Assembly: GCA_019358935.1 (NCBI GenBank)
Contig: JAHHIK010000073.1
Location: 1 to 41,552, forward strand
Source of the DNA: Tolypothrix carrinoi HA7290-LM1
Lineage (GTDB): Bacteria; Cyanobacteriota; Cyanobacteriia; Cyanobacteriales; Nostocaceae
Length of the DNA: 41,552 nucleotides
Direction: 5' to 3'
In this document: in pieces, positions 17,927 to 33,268 of the stretch
How positions within the stretch are numbered: position 1 is the first letter of the stretch
How the letters are laid out: each line of letters begins with the position of its first letter
Program-made: the position numbers and the translations under genes
Notes under the pieces: generated by a model
Databases searched by the model: none
What the model was told of the DNA's origin: nothing
What the model saw: the letters and a program-made list of their open reading frames with translations, nothing else

Positions 17927-19048
17927 ATGAATAAAAACAAATTAAATTTAAGACCTCTCTCCAAACCTCTCTCCTACAAGGTCTTAGGCTTTAACTCCCC
18001 CTTCCCTCATAGGGAAGGGGGCTGGGGGGTTAGCGCTGTGGGCGGCTCTGCCGACTTGAAGCGTCTGGCGTGGGTTAGGTCTGTTTTGTCTTACTTAAAA
18101 CTTACAAAGTCAAACAAATTAAATGTAAGACCTCTCTCCAAACCTCTCTCCTACAAGGTCTTAGGCTTTAACTCCCCCTTCCCTCATAGGGAAGGGGGCT
18201 GGGGAGCCAGCGCTGTGGGCGGCTCTGCCGACTTGAAGCGTCTGGCGTGGGTTAGGTCTGTTTTGTCTTACTTAAAACTTCCTTTGATTACTTTACTACT
18301 TAGTTTGGCGACATCACAAGTTCAAGCGCAATCATTCGATAACATAGTTTCTATCAAACAAAATAAACCCACCGATCAACAATTTCCCGATGATGGCGAT
18401 CCTACAGGTCGGCGTCGAGGAGGAGCAAGCCGACGTGGTGATTGTCCCAACTTAAAAACGCCGTTGACAGCTTTAGTTCCTGGTGAGGAAACTAACAATA
18501 AATCCTTTTTAGGAACAACAATCAGCGAGTATCCTAGCTTTTGGGTTTATATTCCACAGTTAGCCAGCGATATCCGTTCTGGAGAGTTTGTCTTGCAAGA
18601 TCGAGAAGGTAACGATATTTGGCGTACACCAATTACCTTACCAGGAAAACCGGGAGCAATTAGTGTCAAACTACCGCAAAATCCCCAATATGCTCTGAAG
18701 CCAAACTTGAAATATCATTGGTATTTCAACATTTATTGTAATCCGACTCAAAATAATTCTGTGTATTTTGTTGATGCATGGGTGCGACGAGTGACAATAA
18801 CCCCTCAACTGCAACAGCAGTTAAATAAAGCAAAATCACAGAAGTACAAAGTTTATATCGCTAATAATATTTGGTACGATGCTATAACTAATTTAGGAGA
18901 ATTACGCCGCAATAATCCAGGCGTTGGCGAAGCCACTCCTTCGGAGTATCGCGCTTTTGTTGAAGATTGGACTAAATTGTTAAAATCAGTCAATTTATCA
19001 GAACTTGCACCAGCACCAATTGTGCAAATTTACACCCCCAACAAATAG
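17927..19048 (+). CDS. DUF928 domain protein with repeat insertions in its N-terminus
   Basis: GRRRGGASRRGDC, LTALVP, PSFWVYIP, YHWYF, FVDAWVRR, IWYDA and WTKLLKSVNL motifs. Confidence 0.9.
   Translation: MNKNKLNLRPLSKPLSYKVLGFNSPFPHREGGWGVSAVGGSADLKRLAWVRSVLSYLKLTKSNKLNVRPLSKPLSYKVLGFNSPFPHREGGWGASAVGGSADLKRLAWVRSVLSYLKLPLITLLLSLATSQVQAQSFDNIVSIKQNKPTDQQFPDDGDPTGRRRGGASRRGDCPNLKTPLTALVPGEETNNKSFLGTTISEYPSFWVYIPQLASDIRSGEFVLQDREGNDIWRTPITLPGKPGAISVKLPQNPQYALKPNLKYHWYFNIYCNPTQNNSVYFVDAWVRRVTITPQLQQQLNKAKSQKYKVYIANNIWYDAITNLGELRRNNPGVGEATPSEYRAFVEDWTKLLKSVNLSELAPAPIVQIYTPNK
17936..18280 (+). repeat. In-frame 177-bp tandem duplication containing an AGACCT...AGGTCT element
   Basis: Units start at 17936 and 18113 and are nearly identical; the internal element is a reverse-complement relative of 8841-8978. 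Confidence 0.92.
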
Positions 19049-19314: not shown

Positions 19315-19600
19315 GTCAACAAGAAGGGTGTAGGGGGTAGGGTGTAGGGTGTAGGGGGGAAGACGGCATTGGTCGAGGCGTGTGATTCCCCGACCAATGC
19401 AATCGTCCTAGAAGGACGGGGCTTGTGACCCACTGGTTGTTGGGGCTAGTCTTTCCCCACACCCGAAAGAAGGGGGTAGGGGGTAGGGGGTAGGGGGTAG
19501 GGAAGAAGAGATATTTCTTTCCCCTAACCAGGCAACCCCACACCCTTACACCCAATTCTTTCCCCCACACCCCACACCCCGCCCCAACGGGGCTTGGTCA
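19315..19600. mobile_element. Non-autonomous dispersed element, intron-free paralog of the intron host
   Basis: Begins gtcaacaagaagggtgtagg and ends gccccaacggggcttggtca, the same termini as 26330-28817; contains the hairpin cgtcctagaaggacg followed by gggcttgtgacc. Confidence 0.75.
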
Positions 19601-22091: not shown

Positions 22092-22194
22092 CATCAACCC
22101 ACTAGAAATTCGCTTTTTTCAACCAAGTAAAGCAAAAAATAAAGCAATCACGAAAAAACCTTTCACTCTTCGGTGCAATTAAATTAGTTGAACA

Positions 22195-22310
22195 GGGTGT
22201 AGGGGGTAGGGTGTGGGGTGTAGGGAAGAAGAGATATTTCTTTCCCCCACACCCTACACCCCACACCCTTACACCCAATTCTTTTCCCCACACCCTACAC
22301 CCCACACCCA
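22195..22310. repeat. GGGTGTA/TACACCC heptamer inverted-repeat module
   Basis: Shares the core gggaagaagagatatttctttcccc...cccttacacccaattc with 19470-19580. Confidence 0.8.
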
Positions 22311-24721: not shown

Positions 24722-26148
24722 GCAGATTTTTGATTATTTATATTTTGGCGAAGTTCCTGTGCATATAAGCTATCTAAACTCCGGCTTTTTCCCGCTCTAA
24801 TTTCTTCTGCGGCTTCTTGAAAAATTTCTGCATCAGCAAAAGCTTCAATTTGCTCAACCACAGTTTTGAGATATTCTATTTTTGGGGGAATTTCAGTTAG
24901 ACCTTTTGAATGAGCCTCTGATAAAATTTTTTCTAGAACTTGTTGTACTGTAGATGTGCGAACTTTGGAAAGTAACTCTCCGGGATTTAATATTCGTCTA
25001 GTTTGATCCCAACTTGACATTCCCAATTTAAGACCAACATCTTTCAAAGGCATCCCCTGACAGTAATAAAGTTGCAATCCCGGAATGAATTGATTGGCGA
25101 GAGTAGCATATTTTCGGCTTTTTTGCAACTCGTTTAAGCGATCGCTAATCTGTTCTTCAATTGATCCAACTAATGCCGTTTTCAGTTGTTCATGCAAAAA
25201 CTCTATAATTTCCCGTTGTTCCACATCTAATTCATCTGGGGCATCATTGGGTAAATCTACTCTAGTTGTATAATTTCCCGTATCCGGGTCTTGAATTTCC
25301 AGAGGTTCTCGGTAACTCCAAATGTCATATTCTCTGAGTTGAGTTGCTACATGTTTTAGTTCTTTTGTCAACTCAACCGGGGTTTTAATTATGACACCTC
25401 GTTGCTGCAAGCTTTTTAACATTTCTTGCAGTTGGGCAGTGGAGGGATCGGGACATCTTTTTGCCCCGACTTGACGCTGCACAAGTCTATCTCGACGATA
25501 AACTGAATGAAAGACTTCGACTAAATGGCGATCGCGTACAGATAACTTTTCAATCTGTTTCGGTCTAACTCGATTCATTAAAGCCCAATCACTGAGATTC
25601 TGAAAACCAAACTCTGATAAGAAATCTTTAACTTCAGAATTTTGTTTAGTTTGCAAGTATACCCAATTATCTAAGCTCATGCTAGAGGCATCAGCGTTAT
25701 ATGTTCGCAAAACCTCAACCGTAAAAAATTTAAAAGTTGATGTTTTTGTTTCACCGTTTGCATTTAGGAGAAGTTGAGTTTTGCGATCGCTATCCAAGAT
25801 AATCGGCGTTTTTCCATCATCATTCAGCACAAATGGCAGTAAATCCTTGTACGTAAAGGACTTATCACCACTAAACAGACTATCTATCTTTTGACAAGCT
25901 TTGAGAATCGGTTCGCTAACATAGCACCGCAAACAAAATCCAGCTTTTGCACGAGTTGCAACATCAACTTTCTTTGAGTTAAAGCTGTAATTGGATAGCA
26001 AAAAAGCTTGCATCTCCCTAGTTTGGGAACTAGGAACATTTTGGTGAAAAAATTCCTCGGCAATCGGAACTAAACTGTATTCATATCCTGCCCTTTGACT
26101 CTTAAGACTAATTCGGCAAATATGCCAGTATCTTGATGTCGCACTCAT
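24718..26148 (-). CDS. Atypical sigma-70-like / HetZ-related regulator
   Basis: CLRCYVS, LSDWALMN and YRRDRL motifs; C-terminal region-4-like HTH LQLYYCQGMPLKDVGLKLGM; ATGA overlap with the DUF1822 gene. Confidence 0.55.
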   Translation of the reverse strand: MSATSRYWHICRISLKSQRAGYEYSLVPIAEEFFHQNVPSSQTREMQAFLLSNYSFNSKKVDVATRAKAGFCLRCYVSEPILKACQKIDSLFSGDKSFTYKDLLPFVLNDDGKTPIILDSDRKTQLLLNANGETKTSTFKFFTVEVLRTYNADASSMSLDNWVYLQTKQNSEVKDFLSEFGFQNLSDWALMNRVRPKQIEKLSVRDRHLVEVFHSVYRRDRLVQRQVGAKRCPDPSTAQLQEMLKSLQQRGVIIKTPVELTKELKHVATQLREYDIWSYREPLEIQDPDTGNYTTRVDLPNDAPDELDVEQREIIEFLHEQLKTALVGSIEEQISDRLNELQKSRKYATLANQFIPGLQLYYCQGMPLKDVGLKLGMSSWDQTRRILNPGELLSKVRTSTVQQVLEKILSEAHSKGLTEIPPKIEYLKTVVEQIEAFADAEIFQEAAEEIRAGKSRSLDSLYAQELRQNINNQKSA

Positions 26149-26442
26149 AGATCCTGGTTCTCCTAGTGTACGATGACTTTTATGTATCTTTCTATGCAAT
26201 AAATAGATGCTTGCATATTCAGCTTATGCAGCACCTATTATTTAGGTTGTCATTAACAACTACCATTAGTCAATTCCAGGTAGAGCAAAACCCAACAAAC
26301 TTAAATTACATCTGCCTTGAGAGAGGTTTGTCAACAAGAAGGGTGTAGGGGGTAGGGGGTAGGGTGTAGGGGGAAGACGGCATTGGACTACGCTTGGACG
26401 CGGGACCATTTGCTACGTCTTGAAAAAACGGGGCTTGTATCC

Positions 26443-28732
26443 GTGCGGTTCGTTTCTATGAAACATAGTAACTAACTATGGGAATTAGAGTCCTTACACC
26501 GCCTTGAGTTCCTTGTAACTCCAAAAAAGAAAGTAAGGATAACTTCAATCCAGTGTGAGTGCGTCGAAATCATAGAGTAGACAAGCCTCACCCGCCAGGA
26601 GTAGTGTGATGCCAAATCTGCCCACACAGATGGAGAACAAACTCCAAAAGTGAAGCTGGGAACAGGACGAGGAAAACAAACCTGAGATGGGGGTAACTCG
26701 TATAGGTAGGTAGTCACGGTTAGGCATTAGCCGAACCTTCGGAAAAAGCGTCCAAAGCCCTCCAGCCAAACTCAAGGCTGGGTAACGATATACACCCGCA
26801 TCGCCGATGGATACAGCAGATGCAACTCTGGGTAATCGTGGGCGAAGTGAGGGAACCTAAAACTACAAAACAACTGGATTGGGGAACGAATAAAACGGCT
26901 CTTTCAACCTTCAATCCTTGAGATTGTGGAACCCTTAAATAAGGTTTAGCAGGTAGAGTTGGTAGGATTCACTCGAAAATCGGCGAACCAAGGACTCGCT
27001 GACAACTGGGTGAGGTTTACATAGAAAATGTCCAAATGTAGTAGAGAAGGTTATGACAACGGAGTTAAATCCAGTTGATAAATGGAAATCAATTCCCTGG
27101 CGTAAGCTGCGGAAAATTGTATTTCGCCTACAAGTTCGGATATTTAAGGCTCAAAAGAATGGAAACGCACGATTAGTGCGAAAACTTCAGAAACTTTTAT
27201 TAAGCTCCAAAGCCGCGAAGCTACTGGCTATCCGCCAAGTGACGCAGTTAAATATGGGGAAGAAAACCGCAGGGGTAGACGGCAAAAAAGCTCTCGAACC
27301 CGCCCAAAGATTAGCACTTTACGAAGTGTTGATTAAAAACTGGAAGCAATGGAAACACCAACCTCTTAAAAGAGTTTGGATTCCAAAAGCTGACGGAACA
27401 AAAAGGGGACTAGGAATTCCAACCATCGGCGATAGAGCTTATCAATGCCTTCTCAAATATGCTCTGGAACCCGCATCCGAAGCCGAGTTCAACGCCCATT
27501 CCTATGGGTTTAGACCTGGAAGAAGCACACGCGATGTCCAACAAGGAATCTTTAATCAACTTAAGACTAACGCCAAAGGTCTAAACAAAAGAATCCTGGA
27601 ACTAGATATCGAAAAATGTTTCGACAAGATTGACCACAAATTCCTAATGCAATCTGTCCAACTTCCCAGAGCAGCCAAACAAGGACTGTTCCGAGCCATT
27701 AAAGCTGGAGTCCGAGGAGAATTCCCGTCTTCAGTAACAGGAACCCCTCAAGGCGGAGTCATCAGTCCATTACTCGCAAACCTAGTCCTACATGGATTGG
27801 AAAATGTGGGATATGAATTGAGATACAAAGTTAAAAATGGCGGTACATATTTGGATGCACTAAAAGGATTCCGTTATGCGGATGACGTAGTGTATATTCT
27901 CAATCCTGAAGACGATGAAAATATCCTTAGAGAACGTATTGACCTATTCCTGAAAAAAAGAGGGTTAAAAGTAAAAGAAGCCAAAACCAAAGTAGTTAAA
28001 AGCACCGATGGTTTCGACTTTCTTGGGTGGAAATTTTGTATTAAACCCAATGGTAAATTCATCTCTACACCGAGTCAAAAATCCGTCAAAGGAATCAAGG
28101 CAAAAGTGAAAGAAGTCTTGAAAGATAGTCGATTCACCCTAGAACAACGTATCGATAAATGCGAAGCGGTAGTTCGTGGATGGAGAAATTACCATCGATT
28201 CTGCGATATGAGTCAACACGACCTATGGAGTTTAAACCACTGGGCTTGGAAATTCATTCGCAAACAAGGGAGATACGACCGATACCAAACCAACAGGGTT
28301 TTAAAGAAAGCATTTCCATCTGTAAAATGGGCAGCGTGTAGGTTTGTCAACGTTACTGGGGCAAAATCCCCCTTCGACGGTGACTTTGCGTACTGGTCAC
28401 AGAGAGAAAATGCTAATTACGACGGTATAACGGCTAGAATCCTGAAGAAACAGAATCACAAGTGCGCCCACTGCGGTCTAAGGTTCTATTCAGGTGACAT
28501 TGCAGAATTACACCATAAAGATGGCAACCATGCAAATTGGAAAGTCAATAATTTGGAAGTGCTGCATCGAGAATGTCATCTACATCAAACCAATCATGGC
28601 AAAAGATGCGAGTCCGAAAAACAGGTCAATCCTGATTTAGTAGATGTCAAGCTAGGAGCGTAGTGCGGTGAAAGTCGCACGCTACGTTCTGAACGGGAGG
28701 TGTCCCATAGCAATATGGGCATCGACCCTAAC
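26443..28732 (+). mobile_element. Group II intron (IIB, chloroplast-like class), apparently complete
   Basis: 5' GTGCG; domain V gAGCgtagtgcggtgaaagtcgcacgctacgttc (about 28656-28689); domain VI with bulged A and a 3' AAC end; EBS1 GGATAC at 26809-26814 and EBS2 AAGCCC at 26755-26760. Confidence 0.95.
27053..28663 (+). CDS. Group II intron reverse transcriptase/maturase with C-terminal HNH endonuclease
   Basis: RT0 W...VFRLQVRIFKA, TAGVDG, YGFRPGRS, LDIEKCFD, GTPQGGVISPLLAN, YADD, GFDFLG, GWRNY, CAHC...HHKDGNH...NN...LHRECH. Confidence 0.97.
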   Translation: MTTELNPVDKWKSIPWRKLRKIVFRLQVRIFKAQKNGNARLVRKLQKLLLSSKAAKLLAIRQVTQLNMGKKTAGVDGKKALEPAQRLALYEVLIKNWKQWKHQPLKRVWIPKADGTKRGLGIPTIGDRAYQCLLKYALEPASEAEFNAHSYGFRPGRSTRDVQQGIFNQLKTNAKGLNKRILELDIEKCFDKIDHKFLMQSVQLPRAAKQGLFRAIKAGVRGEFPSSVTGTPQGGVISPLLANLVLHGLENVGYELRYKVKNGGTYLDALKGFRYADDVVYILNPEDDENILRERIDLFLKKRGLKVKEAKTKVVKSTDGFDFLGWKFCIKPNGKFISTPSQKSVKGIKAKVKEVLKDSRFTLEQRIDKCEAVVRGWRNYHRFCDMSQHDLWSLNHWAWKFIRKQGRYDRYQTNRVLKKAFPSVKWAACRFVNVTGAKSPFDGDFAYWSQRENANYDGITARILKKQNHKCAHCGLRFYSGDIAELHHKDGNHANWKVNNLEVLHRECHLHQTNHGKRCESEKQVNPDLVDVKLGA

Positions 28733-28993
28733 CAACGGTTGTTGGGGCTATCACGAATGTGCAACCCCACACCCCACAACGCCACACCCCACACCCCGCC
28801 CCAACGGGGCTTGGTCAAGCGACCCAAACGGCTTGCCTTAGAGCATTTTCCAGAAAATATAGTATAAAACACTATCAATAAATTCTGACTGATGAATTCT
28901 CTTTCATCCCAAAAGTGCATAAGTTGATTGACTGACAGCCATTAGTAATTAGAAAGCAACAAAGCCATTCTGAACAACAAAAACTAGAAAACT

Positions 28994-29576
28994 ATGGCAG
29001 GTCAAACTTATACCGTCAAACAGGGCGACTTTCTATCATCAATCGCGCAGCAATTTTACGGCGATGGCAGTGAAGCGTCTTGGAGAAGAATTTACGAAGC
29101 GAATAAAGCCTTAATTGGACCTGACCCGACCCAGCTCAAACCAGGGATGGTACTTACCATTCCTGGGGTATCTGCCCCTCAGCCATCGAATAATATCGTC
29201 AACAGAGTTTTAGAACTCACCAATATAGAGCGCAGTAAAGCTGGTTTGTCACCACTAAGATTAAATCCGCAATTGACTGCGGCTGCACAAGCTCACAGCG
29301 AGAACATGGCACGGAGCAAGTCTATAAGTCACCAACTCCCAGGCGAGTTATCATGATAGCGATCGCATCTCACATGCAGGCTATAAATGGTCAGAAATTG
29401 CCGAGAACGTTGCAGCAGGACAGAAGACACCAGAACAAGCAGTCTCTATTTGGATCAACGAGGTTCCTCCCAATGATGCACATCGCAGAAACATTCTTAA
29501 TCCCAATTATCGGGAGCTTGGTGTTGGTTACTCCAACAACTATTGGACACAAGATTTCGGCTCCCCCGCATACTGA
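28994..29576 (+). pseudogene. Frameshifted LysM + CAP (SCP) domain gene
   Basis: LysM and the CAP N-half stop at 29356; the CAP C-half (SDRISHAGY...AENVAAGQ...HRRNILNPNYRELGVG...YWTQDFG) continues in another frame to TGA at 29576. Confidence 0.88.
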
Positions 29577-29613
29577 ACTTGATGTAAAAGTCAATTTCTC
29601 AAAGGAAAAAATC

Positions 29614-30411
29614 ATGTATACCACGCAAAATGCAAGTCAAACATATACCGTACAATCTGGTGACACCCTATTTATAATTGCCGAAAAAGTTTACCAAGAT
29701 GGTAATTTATGGTCTCTAATTTACGAAGCTAATCGCGGGATAATTGGAAATGATCCCAGTCAAATTCAACTGGGAATGGTACTTGTTATTCCCGAACAAA
29801 ATCAGTCTGGTAATCCTGGTACAAGCAAGGGAAATTTTCAAGATATGCTCGAAGCACTAGGAGCATTTGAATCAGGATTACCATCAGGAAATCCAAATCA
29901 ATACACCGTTGAAAATTCACTCGGTTTTATCGGCAAGTACCAATTTGGAGAAGCCCTACTGATTGACCTTGGCTACTACAAAGCCGATGTTTTCTATGGA
30001 CAACCTGGTGTTGACAAAAATTACTGGCGGGGTACATGGACAGGAAAGAAAGGTATTGATAGCAAAGCCAAATTCCAAAATTCTCCTGATGTCCAAGAAT
30101 TTGCAATTCGTGAAGCTTTTGCCCTCAACTGGAATCGTATCAACGATACGCTAAAAGGTCAAGGAAAGTCCATAAACGAATACCTCGGTCAGCAAAAGAC
30201 ATTTGATGATAATGGAGTGTCAAAAACAATAACAATCACCCTTTCTGGCATTCTCGCTGGGGCACACCTGCGCGGTCCTTATGGGTTAGCAGACCTTCTG
30301 CTCAAAAACGAAGTGTCTCACGATGAATTTGGCACTTCTATTCTGCGATACATAAATGAATATGGCGGTTATCAAGTTACGCCAGAAGATTTTCTCAATC
30401 CCGGTTCATAA
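29614..30411 (+). CDS. LysM + lysozyme-like domain protein (putative glycan hydrolase)
   Basis: AAGGA RBS; LysM YTVQSGDTLFIIA...IQLGMVLVIP; then LGAFESG...N..GFIGKYQFGE...Q...AGAHL, a lysozyme-fold pattern. Confidence 0.75.
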   Translation: MYTTQNASQTYTVQSGDTLFIIAEKVYQDGNLWSLIYEANRGIIGNDPSQIQLGMVLVIPEQNQSGNPGTSKGNFQDMLEALGAFESGLPSGNPNQYTVENSLGFIGKYQFGEALLIDLGYYKADVFYGQPGVDKNYWRGTWTGKKGIDSKAKFQNSPDVQEFAIREAFALNWNRINDTLKGQGKSINEYLGQQKTFDDNGVSKTITITLSGILAGAHLRGPYGLADLLLKNEVSHDEFGTSILRYINEYGGYQVTPEDFLNPGS

Positions 30412-31488: not shown

Positions 31489-32136
31489 ATGCATCATGTC
31501 ACCCCCAAGGAAGCGGCTAAAATCCTTGGTGTCCACGTCTCCAGTCTGCGAAGGTGGGAAAACGAAGGAAAGCTTAAAGCAATCCGGACACCAGGAGGTC
31601 AAAGACGATTTGCCCTTGAAGAAGTCGAGAAAGCGGCAGGTGTCACCGGGACAGTTAGAACTGTTTGCTATGGACGAGTATCGACTCATTCCCAACAAGA
31701 CGATTTGCAACGACAGCTTGAACATTTACGCGCAAGATACCCAGAGGCTGAAATCATTTCAGAAACTGGAAGCGGACTCAATTTTAGGCGGAAAAAGTTC
31801 CTCGCGATTTTGGAACGAATTATCGACGGTGATATCCAACGTCTTGTCGTTGCCCACCCTGACCGACTTGTTAGATTCGGAATCGAATTGGTTAAATGGT
31901 TATGCCAGAAATTTCAGTGTGAACTCGTGGTTCTCAATGACCGCAAGCTCAGTCCAGAGCAAGAACTCGTACAAGATATGTTGTCCATCATCTACTGTTT
32001 TAGTTCAAGGCTTTACGGACTTAGAAAATACTCAAAACAAGTCAAAGAAGATTTACAAAAAGAAAACCCGTCACTCGTCGTCTCAATCGACAAAGCCTCA
32101 ACCGAACAGTGTGCAGAAAATCAGGCTATATCCTAG
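31489..32136 (+). CDS. tnpA: IS607 transposase (MerR-type HTH plus serine recombinase)
   Basis: EAAKILGV...LRRWENEGKL...RTPGGQRR, YGRVST (catalytic Ser), GSGLNFRR, DRLVRFG, ELVQDML...FSSRLYG. Confidence 0.96.
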   Translation: MHHVTPKEAAKILGVHVSSLRRWENEGKLKAIRTPGGQRRFALEEVEKAAGVTGTVRTVCYGRVSTHSQQDDLQRQLEHLRARYPEAEIISETGSGLNFRRKKFLAILERIIDGDIQRLVVAHPDRLVRFGIELVKWLCQKFQCELVVLNDRKLSPEQELVQDMLSIIYCFSSRLYGLRKYSKQVKEDLQKENPSLVVSIDKASTEQCAENQAIS

Positions 32137-33268
32137 CAAGGAATTGCACAAAGTTTGGAAGCGCTGGCTAGCTCAGTACCGCTATTACTACAACGAAACT
32201 ATCAGCTTACTTCGTTGTTTTGATAGAGTTGAAAAACTATCTGCTGAAACCTTAGATAAGATGTTACAGCGCTTAGAGAATGCCCCAGACTGGGTAAAAA
32301 CAATACCAGGTCATCAGCGCCAAGAAGCCTGTTTTGAGGCTTACGACGCATTTAAACGAGCTAAAAAAGATGGAGGTTTTGCTAAGTTCAAATCTGTTAA
32401 ATCTACCAGTCAAGCGATACAGTTTAAAGTTGGTAATTTTAAAAATGGTACGTGGTATTGTAACACAACTAAAGGCTTGAAATTCACTACGATTGGTCAA
32501 TCACATCCAAACCAATGTGAATACGGTACAGAGCTTGTATACCGCTGTGGTAAATGGTTTGGGTGTTTTCCGTGTGTAGAAGAAGTTGCGACGACTGGGA
32601 GCGACCGGGTAATTGCACTTGACCCTGGTAATCGCACTTTCTTAACTGGTTTTGATGGAGAAAACGTTTTAGAGATTGGCAAGGGAGACATTGGACGCAT
32701 ACAAAGATTGTGTCAACACCTTGACAACCTAATAAGCCGTTCTACTAAGGTCAAAGCCCACCAACGTAGAAAAATGCGTCTTGCCGCAAACCGTGCTAGA
32801 GAAAAAATTCAAGACCTAATTAAGGATTTGCATAAGAAGGCTACCAATCTGTTAGTTAATTCCTACAAAACAATCTTTCTTCCAACTTTTGATTCTAGCC
32901 AGATGGTAATTAAAAAGAGAAGCGGAAAGAAACGCAGGATTAACAGCAAGTCAGTGCGCCAAATGTTAACCCTTTCCCATTACCGCTTTGAACAACATCT
33001 CAAACAAGCAGCGTTAAAAAAAGGCGTGTTAGTTGTACTTTGCAACGAATCTTACACGTCTAAAACCTGTGGTAGTTGCGGTCATATTCACCATAAGCTT
33101 GGTGGTTCCAAAATCTTTAAATGCCTACATTGCGGCGCTCAAATTTCCCGCGATGTTAATGGCGCACGTAACATTATGCTACGTGCTTTGCAGGCAACTG
33201 CCTTCACCGTAACGCACGATTCTTTGGTGCTGTCGGATGCGTCCGACTTGACGGGAAGCGGTAGTTAA
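32111..33268 (+). CDS. tnpB: RNA-guided endonuclease TnpB, pro-Fanzor-like; start uncertain because the frame is open from 31496
   Basis: KIRLYP, ALDPG (RuvC-I), IFLPTF, NESYTSKTCGSCG...CLHC zinc finger, RDVNGARNI (RuvC-III). Confidence 0.92.
   Translation: MQKIRLYPSKELHKVWKRWLAQYRYYYNETISLLRCFDRVEKLSAETLDKMLQRLENAPDWVKTIPGHQRQEACFEAYDAFKRAKKDGGFAKFKSVKSTSQAIQFKVGNFKNGTWYCNTTKGLKFTTIGQSHPNQCEYGTELVYRCGKWFGCFPCVEEVATTGSDRVIALDPGNRTFLTGFDGENVLEIGKGDIGRIQRLCQHLDNLISRSTKVKAHQRRKMRLAANRAREKIQDLIKDLHKKATNLLVNSYKTIFLPTFDSSQMVIKKRSGKKRRINSKSVRQMLTLSHYRFEQHLKQAALKKGVLVVLCNESYTSKTCGSCGHIHHKLGGSKIFKCLHCGAQISRDVNGARNIMLRALQATAFTVTHDSLVLSDASDLTGSGS

What the first reader, a model, noticed from the sequence alone, without database searches (positions are those of the whole stretch)
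26330..28817. Group II intron programmed to home into a transposon-end-like repeat, with an escaped empty copy nearby
Seen: the last 12 nt of the 5' exon, GGGCTT-GTATCC (26431-26442), are exactly complementary to intron AAGCCC (26755-26760, EBS2) and GGATAC (26809-26814, EBS1, in the loop of a gcatc/gatgc stem). The target is not a gene but a motif directly 3' of a hairpin in a dispersed non-coding element. The paralogous element has GGGCTT-GTGACC at 19419-19430, with IBS2 intact and two IBS1 mismatches, and it is intron-free. The RT (YADD), maturase and HNH domains look intact. Inference: the intron is a hyperparasite using a multicopy IS200/IS605-type end motif as a safe, self-renewing homing site, and it may be carried as cargo by the host element. 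IBS1 variants would be immune.
Basis: partly seen in the sequence, partly recalled or inferred. Interest (0 to 1): 0.82.

Follow-up and report, generated by a model that had tools for sequence, protein, structure and literature searches.

The report
Intron homing on transposon guide DNA
A self-splicing mobile intron in a cyanobacterium recognises the short DNA 'guide' that IS200/IS605 transposons need in order to move, and here it landed in a tiny gene-less transposon carrying that motif; the nearby empty copy shows no sign of having escaped it.

Summary
Observation confirmed. A single-copy group II intron (26443-28732) has an intact 536-aa RT/maturase/HNH protein, and its EBS1/EBS2 match the exon exactly. 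Covariation across 28 relatives supports the EBS assignment.

The host is a ~190-nt gene-less IS200/IS605-type element (14 copies here, 45 of 389 family genomes) that inserts at a single GTCA. The 12-nt target is the antisense of a left-end hairpin foot plus its 4-nt DNA guide. Three of the four closest relatives sit at this spot in true IS605-type left ends, and their EBS2/EBS1 change with the end's guide class. The primary target is therefore IS605 left ends; this mini-element is a decoy.

Escape/immunity is not supported. GTGACC costs one mismatch plus one wobble, relatives occupy such sites, 32 of 95 listed intron-free host copies keep the perfect GTATCC, and GTGACC occurs in genomes where the intron was not found. 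No intron-carrying element was seen at a second site.

Introns inside IS605 tnpB are in print. Targeting of the guide was not found in my searches. This scan has reported class-C-like introns at IS200/TnpB ends on other DNA.

The parts
26330..26442 (.). Host mini-element, part 5' of the intron: GTCA terminus 26330-26333, heptamer array, two hairpins, target motif
   Evidence: synteny in G009 and G001 stops at the GTCA
26431..26436 (+). IBS2 (GGGCTT): hairpin foot plus three bases of the guide, read antisense
26434..26437 (-). Internal IS200/IS605-type DNA guide CAAG, cognate to cleavage tetranucleotide TGAC
   Evidence: guide/tetranucleotide rule holds in 31 of 36 end motifs
26437..26442 (+). 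IBS1 (GTATCC)
26443..28732 (+). Group II intron, 2290 nt, single copy in G000
   Evidence: depth equals that of the flanks in run X1
26755..26760 (+). EBS2 (AAGCCC)
26798..26823 (+). GCATC/GATGC stem holding the EBS1 loop; both arms change together in relatives
26809..26814 (+). EBS1 (GGATAC)
26847..26847 (+). Probable EBS3 (G), pairing with +1 C of the 3' exon
   Evidence: complementary to +1 in 21 of 28 relatives, joint second rank; tentative
27053..28663 (+). Intron-encoded protein, 536 aa: RT (YADD), maturase, CxxC/HNH tail; no stops
28654..28732 (+). Domains V and VI
   Evidence: Rfam RF00029, 51.2 bits; fold
28733..28817 (.). Host mini-element, part 3' of the intron: heptamer array, terminal hairpin with a second CAAG (minus strand, 28810-28813), GTCA terminus 28814-28817
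19315..19600 (.). Intron-free paralogous mini-element (GTGACC at 19425-19430), with a nested ~90-nt second repeat
   Evidence: precise empty site in G009:C44

Best explanation
An intact IIB/chloroplast-like group II intron belongs to a small cyanobacterial lineage that retrohomes into the left end of IS200/IS605-family elements. The RNP reverse-splices into the strand opposite the transposon's top strand. EBS2 pairs with the hairpin foot and three guide bases, EBS1 with the fourth guide base and five spacer bases, and EBS3 probably with +1 C. In true left ends the intron lands 5 nt from the guide and 10-11 nt from the cleavage tetranucleotide. The guide is needed for transposition, so part of the target cannot drift freely, and the intron's EBS changes with the end's guide class. 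G000 shows no TGAC-class IS605 left end in the motif scan. The intron went into the one copy of a ~190-nt non-autonomous TGAC-class element that carries the same motif perfectly. The other 13 copies are empty because they match less well, and because occupancy is low even at perfect sites. Shown: anatomy, pairing, covariation, recurrent target, mobility of the host element. Inferred: retrohoming chemistry, Y1 transposase as the mover of the host, order of events, fitness logic.
For: Tree: five introns form one clade (SH-aLRT 100, quick tree). Four of five sit at the same position of the motif hairpin-GRGGYTT-NNNNCC|C..YGRTVA: the window copy, L056 (just after a tnpA-like stop), L040 (upstream of tnpB) and G220/L338 (tnpB 536 nt inside). 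EBS2 is AAGCCC with TGAC-class ends and AAACCC with the TTAT/AAAA end of L040. The fifth copy (G050) is off-target, but its EBS set fits the TCAT/GAAA end found empty in the same genome. Guide rule holds in 31 of 36 motif rows, 10 of 10 in G000; only two positions are free in the pattern. The guide is required for complex formation (PMC3201880, passages) and covaries with TAM/TEM (PMC10055086, passages). Host element: fixed ends, single GTCA at the empty site, identical copies with different flanks in G009; 7 of 8 copies with internal GAAG end in GTGA and none in GTCA (counted by eye). In the independent run X2 the orthologous locus lacks both element and intron, while a 99%-identical intron keeps the same 15-nt exon with another flank.
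Against: Only five genome-level members were found, and one is off-target. The other four copies are frameshifted, deleted or split across contigs. No splicing or homing data exist; RNA run X7 holds only a related intron with no junction. The whole-region fold does not open the EBS loops. At the filled locus G009 has two GTCA about 100 nt apart and G000 lacks the interval, so this insertion was not clean. No TGAC-class helper transposase was identified in G000 (7 Y1 hits, none beside such an end). The G009 burst copies lack the internal CAAG, so which hairpin guides the host element is unresolved.
Confidence: 0.8

Rival explanations
1. One reading: the intron specialises on this repeat family as a self-renewing site, and GTGACC copies were selected as immune escapers.
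For: In G000 the only perfect host copy is filled and 0 of 13 imperfect copies are. A central EBS1 mismatch may well lower homing (own knowledge).
Against: 32 of 95 listed intron-free host copies keep GTATCC, in 17 genomes; 15 of 95 have GTGACC, in G000 and 9 other genomes where no close intron was found (hand count). G677 has one deleted intron copy beside 7 empty left ends that match perfectly or equal the filled site. The segment varies in many ways in G009, where the intron was not found. Relatives occupy sites with a -3 mismatch, with or without a wobble (L042, L055, L059). Run X2 holds an empty GTATCC host copy next to a 99%-identical intron (metagenome, strains may differ).
Confidence: 0.1
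2. Cargo model: the intron arrived inside the mini-element, which moves as a 2.5-kb composite because both termini and the terminal guide-hairpin stay intact.
For: The orthologous locus lacks both element and intron in G009, G001 and run X2. Both GTCA ends and the terminal CAAG hairpin are intact. Guide-to-cleavage spacing was reported flexible at the right end (PMC10055086, passage).
Against: One copy only, and no second composite was found in G000, 10 congeners or 389 family genomes. The internal guide, which the intron separates from one terminus, is the one that covaries with the terminal tetranucleotide.
Confidence: 0.2
3. No specialisation: a retargeting intron lineage lands in any tolerated non-coding hairpin, and IS ends are merely abundant.
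For: Relatives at 60-81% identity target other introns' domain V, other IS ends and genes. EBS divergence is a known route of spread (PMC2882425, passages).
Against: Four of five insertions fall at the same nucleotide of one motif, in genomes of two families, and EBS follows the guide class. Left-end motifs number 1-10 per genome.
Confidence: 0.08

Closest known systems
Group II introns inserted in tnpB of cyanobacterial IS605/IS605B (Kapitonov et al. 2016, PMC4810608; main-text passages and supplement Fig. S9 passages read; supplementary file 2 not searched)
   Same: RT-maturase-HNH group II introns parasitising IS605 elements in cyanobacteria, at a fixed site.
   Different: Those sit inside the tnpB reading frame, in sense. 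This lineage sits antisense in the non-coding left end and reads the DNA guide; EBS/IBS was not analysed in the passages seen.
CL/IIB1 introns of Thermosynechococcus elongatus, TeI4 family (PMC2882425, passages; PDB 6ME0 best hit, E 7e-72)
   Same: Closest solved protein; EBS1/2/3 targeting, HNH tail, families that diverge by EBS change, twintrons among relatives.
   Different: Distant protein, different targets; no IS-end targeting in the passages read.
RmInt1 homing in ISRm2011-2 (recalled; named in earlier finding e1-7401846; paper not read)
   Same: An intron using a multicopy IS as its homing site.
   Different: Recalled as endonuclease-less and inserted in a DDE transposase gene, not in a Y1 end.
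PATEs, non-autonomous IS200/IS605 elements (PMC4810608 and PMC10055086, passages)
   Same: Gene-less, subterminal hairpins, tetranucleotide target, guide covarying with the target.
   Different: This family carries heptamer arrays, up to three guide-like motifs and the same tetranucleotide at both ends; not found described.
IStrons (PMC4227781 and bioRxiv 10.1101/2023.11.20.567912; search listings only)
   Same: Self-splicing intron associated with an IS605 element.
   Different: IStrons are group I ribozymes fused into the element and splice it all out; here an independent group II retroelement invades an end.

Membership tests
Mobile group II intron | GUGYG...AY ends with domains V and VI | tested here: met
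Mobile group II intron | Intact RT/maturase ORF with YADD | tested here: met
   (TIGR04416 above cut-off)
Mobile group II intron | Splicing and retrohoming activity | not testable with these tools
   no RNA run of this organism; X7 shows no junction
Subgroup IIB, chloroplast-like class | EBS1 and EBS2 pair with IBS1 and IBS2 | tested here: met
Subgroup IIB, chloroplast-like class | EBS3 pairs with +1 | tested here: inconclusive
   G26847 complementary in 21 of 28, not the top column
Subgroup IIB, chloroplast-like class | HNH endonuclease domain | tested here: inconclusive
   CxxC and His/Asn motif present and aligned to 6ME0; Pfam HNH under cut-off
Subgroup IIB, chloroplast-like class | Placement among curated CL1/CL2 references | not tested
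   best solved-structure hit is the TeI4 protein; no reference tree built
Non-autonomous IS200/IS605 element (PATE), host | Fixed ends, no ORF, dispersed copies with unrelated flanks | tested here: met
Non-autonomous IS200/IS605 element (PATE), host | Insertion at a specific tetranucleotide, shown by an empty site | tested here: met
   single GTCA in G009:C44 for the 19315 copy; looks like a 4-bp repeat because both ends carry it
Non-autonomous IS200/IS605 element (PATE), host | Subterminal hairpin with a guide that covaries with the cleavage site | tested here: met
   CAAG with GTCA, GAAG with GTGA in 7 of 8; exceptions L350, L363, L271 left end
Non-autonomous IS200/IS605 element (PATE), host | Mobilisation in trans by a Y1 TnpA | not testable with these tools
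   G009 has a TGAC-class tnpA+tnpB element (L324); none found in G000
IStron | Group I ribozyme fused to the IS left end | tested here: not met
   group II intron with its own RT, inserted internally
Class C (IIC) hairpin-targeting intron | Short IBS1 only, no EBS2, no endonuclease domain (definition recalled) | tested here: not met
   EBS2 covaries with the exon and an HNH tail is present

The most novel reading that the evidence does not exclude
A group II intron lineage uses its RNA guides to read the DNA guide of IS200/IS605 transposons. It follows changes in the transposons' target specificity and, by inserting between guide and cleavage site, immobilises the left end, so it acts as a sequence-specific parasite of this transposon family. 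A sister clade does the same at the right end (within 1-3 nt of the end, downstream of tnpB), and a Nostocaceae mini-element with spare guide-hairpins may both decoy the intron and be able to carry it.
Probability: 0.35. Interest if true: 0.72.

Novelty: new variant of a known kind. Interest (0 to 1): 0.52.

Why it matters
Introns hiding in other mobile elements are common. This case names the exact bases: an RNA-guided retroelement pairs with the bases that program a DNA-guided transposon, so target escape and transposon function are coupled and testable with single substitutions. It also predicts a way in which IS200/IS605 (TnpB/IscB-bearing) elements are immobilised. It defines an apparently undescribed, recently active mini-element family in 45 of 389 genomes. 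The window copy is the only one of five with a fully assembled, uninterrupted ORF, so it is the one to assay.

Tried and rejected
Host as an IscB/HEARO omega-RNA: no such Rfam hit, even at E<=10; rejected. Whole-region MFE fold as a test of the EBS loops: uninformative, pairs them. Junction pattern in viral contigs: 8 matches, none followed by this intron. Loose junction pattern in 401 order genomes: 73 genomes matched; of 30 loci checked only the known G220 copy had the RT, the rest are chance. The second perfect 12-mer in G000 (C63:48909) lies at a tnpB 3' end with +1 A and is empty. Promoter scan at 26000-27100: none found. RNA run X7: related intron only, no splice evidence; absence means nothing. 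The careful tree did not finish; the quick tree was used, and L031 and L032 were merged as one row. The first regex matched nothing and was redone. Literature searches that did not find left-end or guide targeting by a group II intron; that did not find the mini-element. The library lacks most subscription papers, so absence is weak. Rejected readings: escape/immunity, the repeat as primary target, IStron, class C intron.

Full report
1. Observation. The intron spans 26443-28732, with Rfam domains V-VI at 28654-28732. Its 536-aa ORF has RT, maturase and a CxxC/HNH tail without stops. It is single-copy in the 7.96-Mb assembly, and its depth equals that of the flanks in the probable source run. 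The double hexamer match arises in 352 of 200,000 random genomic 12-mers. An MFE fold of the 5' region pairs these hexamers, so I tested them by comparison. In 39 related intron starts the loop sequence changes with the exon, and the enclosing stem changes on both arms. In 28 introns with both exons, 10 of 12 exon positions picked the predicted EBS base as the best complementary column (related rows, two misaligned). G26847 is the likely EBS3 (21 of 28, not top-ranked).

2. The host. It is a 177-198-nt element (longer where a second repeat is nested) bounded by GTCA at both ends, or GTGA in one subfamily. G000 has 13 intron-free copies and the filled one. For the 19315 copy the orthologous site in G009 holds a single GTCA. 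For the filled copy, G009 and G001 lack the element; G009 has two GTCA about 100 nt apart and G000 lacks the interval. G009 has three identical complete copies and 13 near-identical halves at contig ends with different flanks, a recent burst. A core pattern finds the family in 45 of 389 genomes of the family.

3. What the motif is. The same motif closes true IS200/IS605 elements, next to tnpA 3' ends or upstream of tnpB. Read on the other strand it is cleavage tetranucleotide, spacer, 4-nt guide, hairpin. The pairs TTAC-AAAG, TGAC-CAAG, TCAT-GAAA and TTAT-AAAA follow one rule in 31 of 36 motif rows, 10 of 10 in G000 (the pattern leaves two positions free). AAAG is the IS608 left guide, and mutating it abolishes the transposase complex (PMC3201880, passages). 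In the mini-element the internal guide is GAAG in 8 copies, of which 7 end in GTGA and none in GTCA (by eye). So the host behaves as a non-autonomous IS200/IS605 element; its mover is inferred. IBS2 and the first base of IBS1 are the hairpin foot and the guide, read antisense.

4. Where relatives sit. Five introns form one clade (SH-aLRT 100; quick tree of 45 rows). Besides the window copy, L056, L040 and G220/L338 lie at the same nucleotide of IS605-type left ends, 10-11 nt from the cleavage site. L040's end is of the TTAT/AAAA class and its EBS2 is AAACCC instead of AAGCCC. The G050 copy is at an unrelated site with two wobbles and one mismatch, but its EBS set fits the TCAT/GAAA end found empty in that genome. 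A separate six-row clade (SH-aLRT 99) targets right-end-like motifs; three of them have tnpB directly upstream (L125, L127, L340). Other relatives target domain V of other introns or other IS ends. In independent rock-metagenome run X2, a close strain lacks element and intron at this locus, while a contig with 5 differences in 652 nt of intron shares only 15 nt of exon; run X4 contigs share 14 nt (likeness 88, mixed strains).

5. Escape and cargo. G000 has no TGAC-class left end among its 10 motif hits, and only the filled mini-element matches perfectly. That fits specificity but does not show escape. GTGACC is one mismatch and one wobble, and L042, L055 and L059 occupy sites with a mismatch at the same -3 position. 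Two G000 copies with a single mismatch are empty too (C11, C43). Of 95 listed intron-free host cores (97 found), 32 keep GTATCC and 15 have GTGACC (hand count). The latter occur in nine other genomes where the intron 5' end was not found (two candidates scored per genome). G677 holds one internally deleted intron and 7 empty left ends that match perfectly or equal the filled site. The 19315 copy is 87% identical to the filled one, as is C11. No second composite was found. Cargo remains possible, since both termini and a terminal CAAG hairpin are intact and spacing can be flexible (PMC10055086, passage).

6. Mechanism. Most likely the intron retrohomes into IS605-type left ends through EBS1/2/3 pairing, and this mini-element was hit as a decoy (0.8). 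In true left ends the insertion puts 2.3 kb between guide and cleavage site. Splicing cannot repair that at the DNA level, so the end is probably impaired; this is inference.

7. Known and new. Introns in cyanobacterial IS605 elements are in print, inside tnpB (PMC4810608 text and Fig. S9 passages; one supplementary file not searched). EBS divergence as a route of spread is known (PMC2882425, passages). I found no paper on group II introns reading the left-end guide or on this mini-element. Earlier notes of this scan report class-C-like introns at IS200 and TnpB ends and an intron in an IsrB omega-RNA on other DNA; I did not test them. Verdict: a new variant of a known kind, interest 0.52.

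Noticed in passing
window 28994-29356 and 29353-30411: A LysM-CAP gene appears split: the 120-aa ORF stops inside its CAP domain (profile 1-42 of 117) and the next ORF overlaps its stop.
   Followed up: no
window 31496-33268: Unusually long TnpB-family protein (590 aa, ~200-aa N-terminal extension); one of similar length at G000:C43:12131.
   Followed up: partly
window 19471-19585 and 22194-22308: A second heptamer-based mini-repeat is nested in the empty host copy and recurs 2.7 kb away.
   Followed up: no
window 17935-18280: 169-nt tandem duplication (98% identical) at the start of the DUF928 gene, lengthening its apparent ORF.
   Followed up: no
L125:1281, L127:3276, L340, L043:2879: A sister intron clade inserts 1-3 nt before the right end of tnpB elements, at the omega-RNA scaffold/guide boundary.
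   Followed up: partly
L042, L045, L046, L048, L049, L121-L124, L128-L131: Three related lineages insert into domain V of other group II introns at different positions, forming twintrons.
   Followed up: partly
L259 (G009:C291:1-300): A host mini-element inserted at the GTCA that closes a true TGAC-class IS605 left end.
   Followed up: no
host family alignment: Copies look mosaic: short blocks are shuffled among subfamilies while length and ends stay fixed.
   Followed up: no
L004 / G020:C1:2838927-2839042: Isolated 116-nt fragment of this intron's domain I, including EBS2, in an intergenic region.
   Followed up: no
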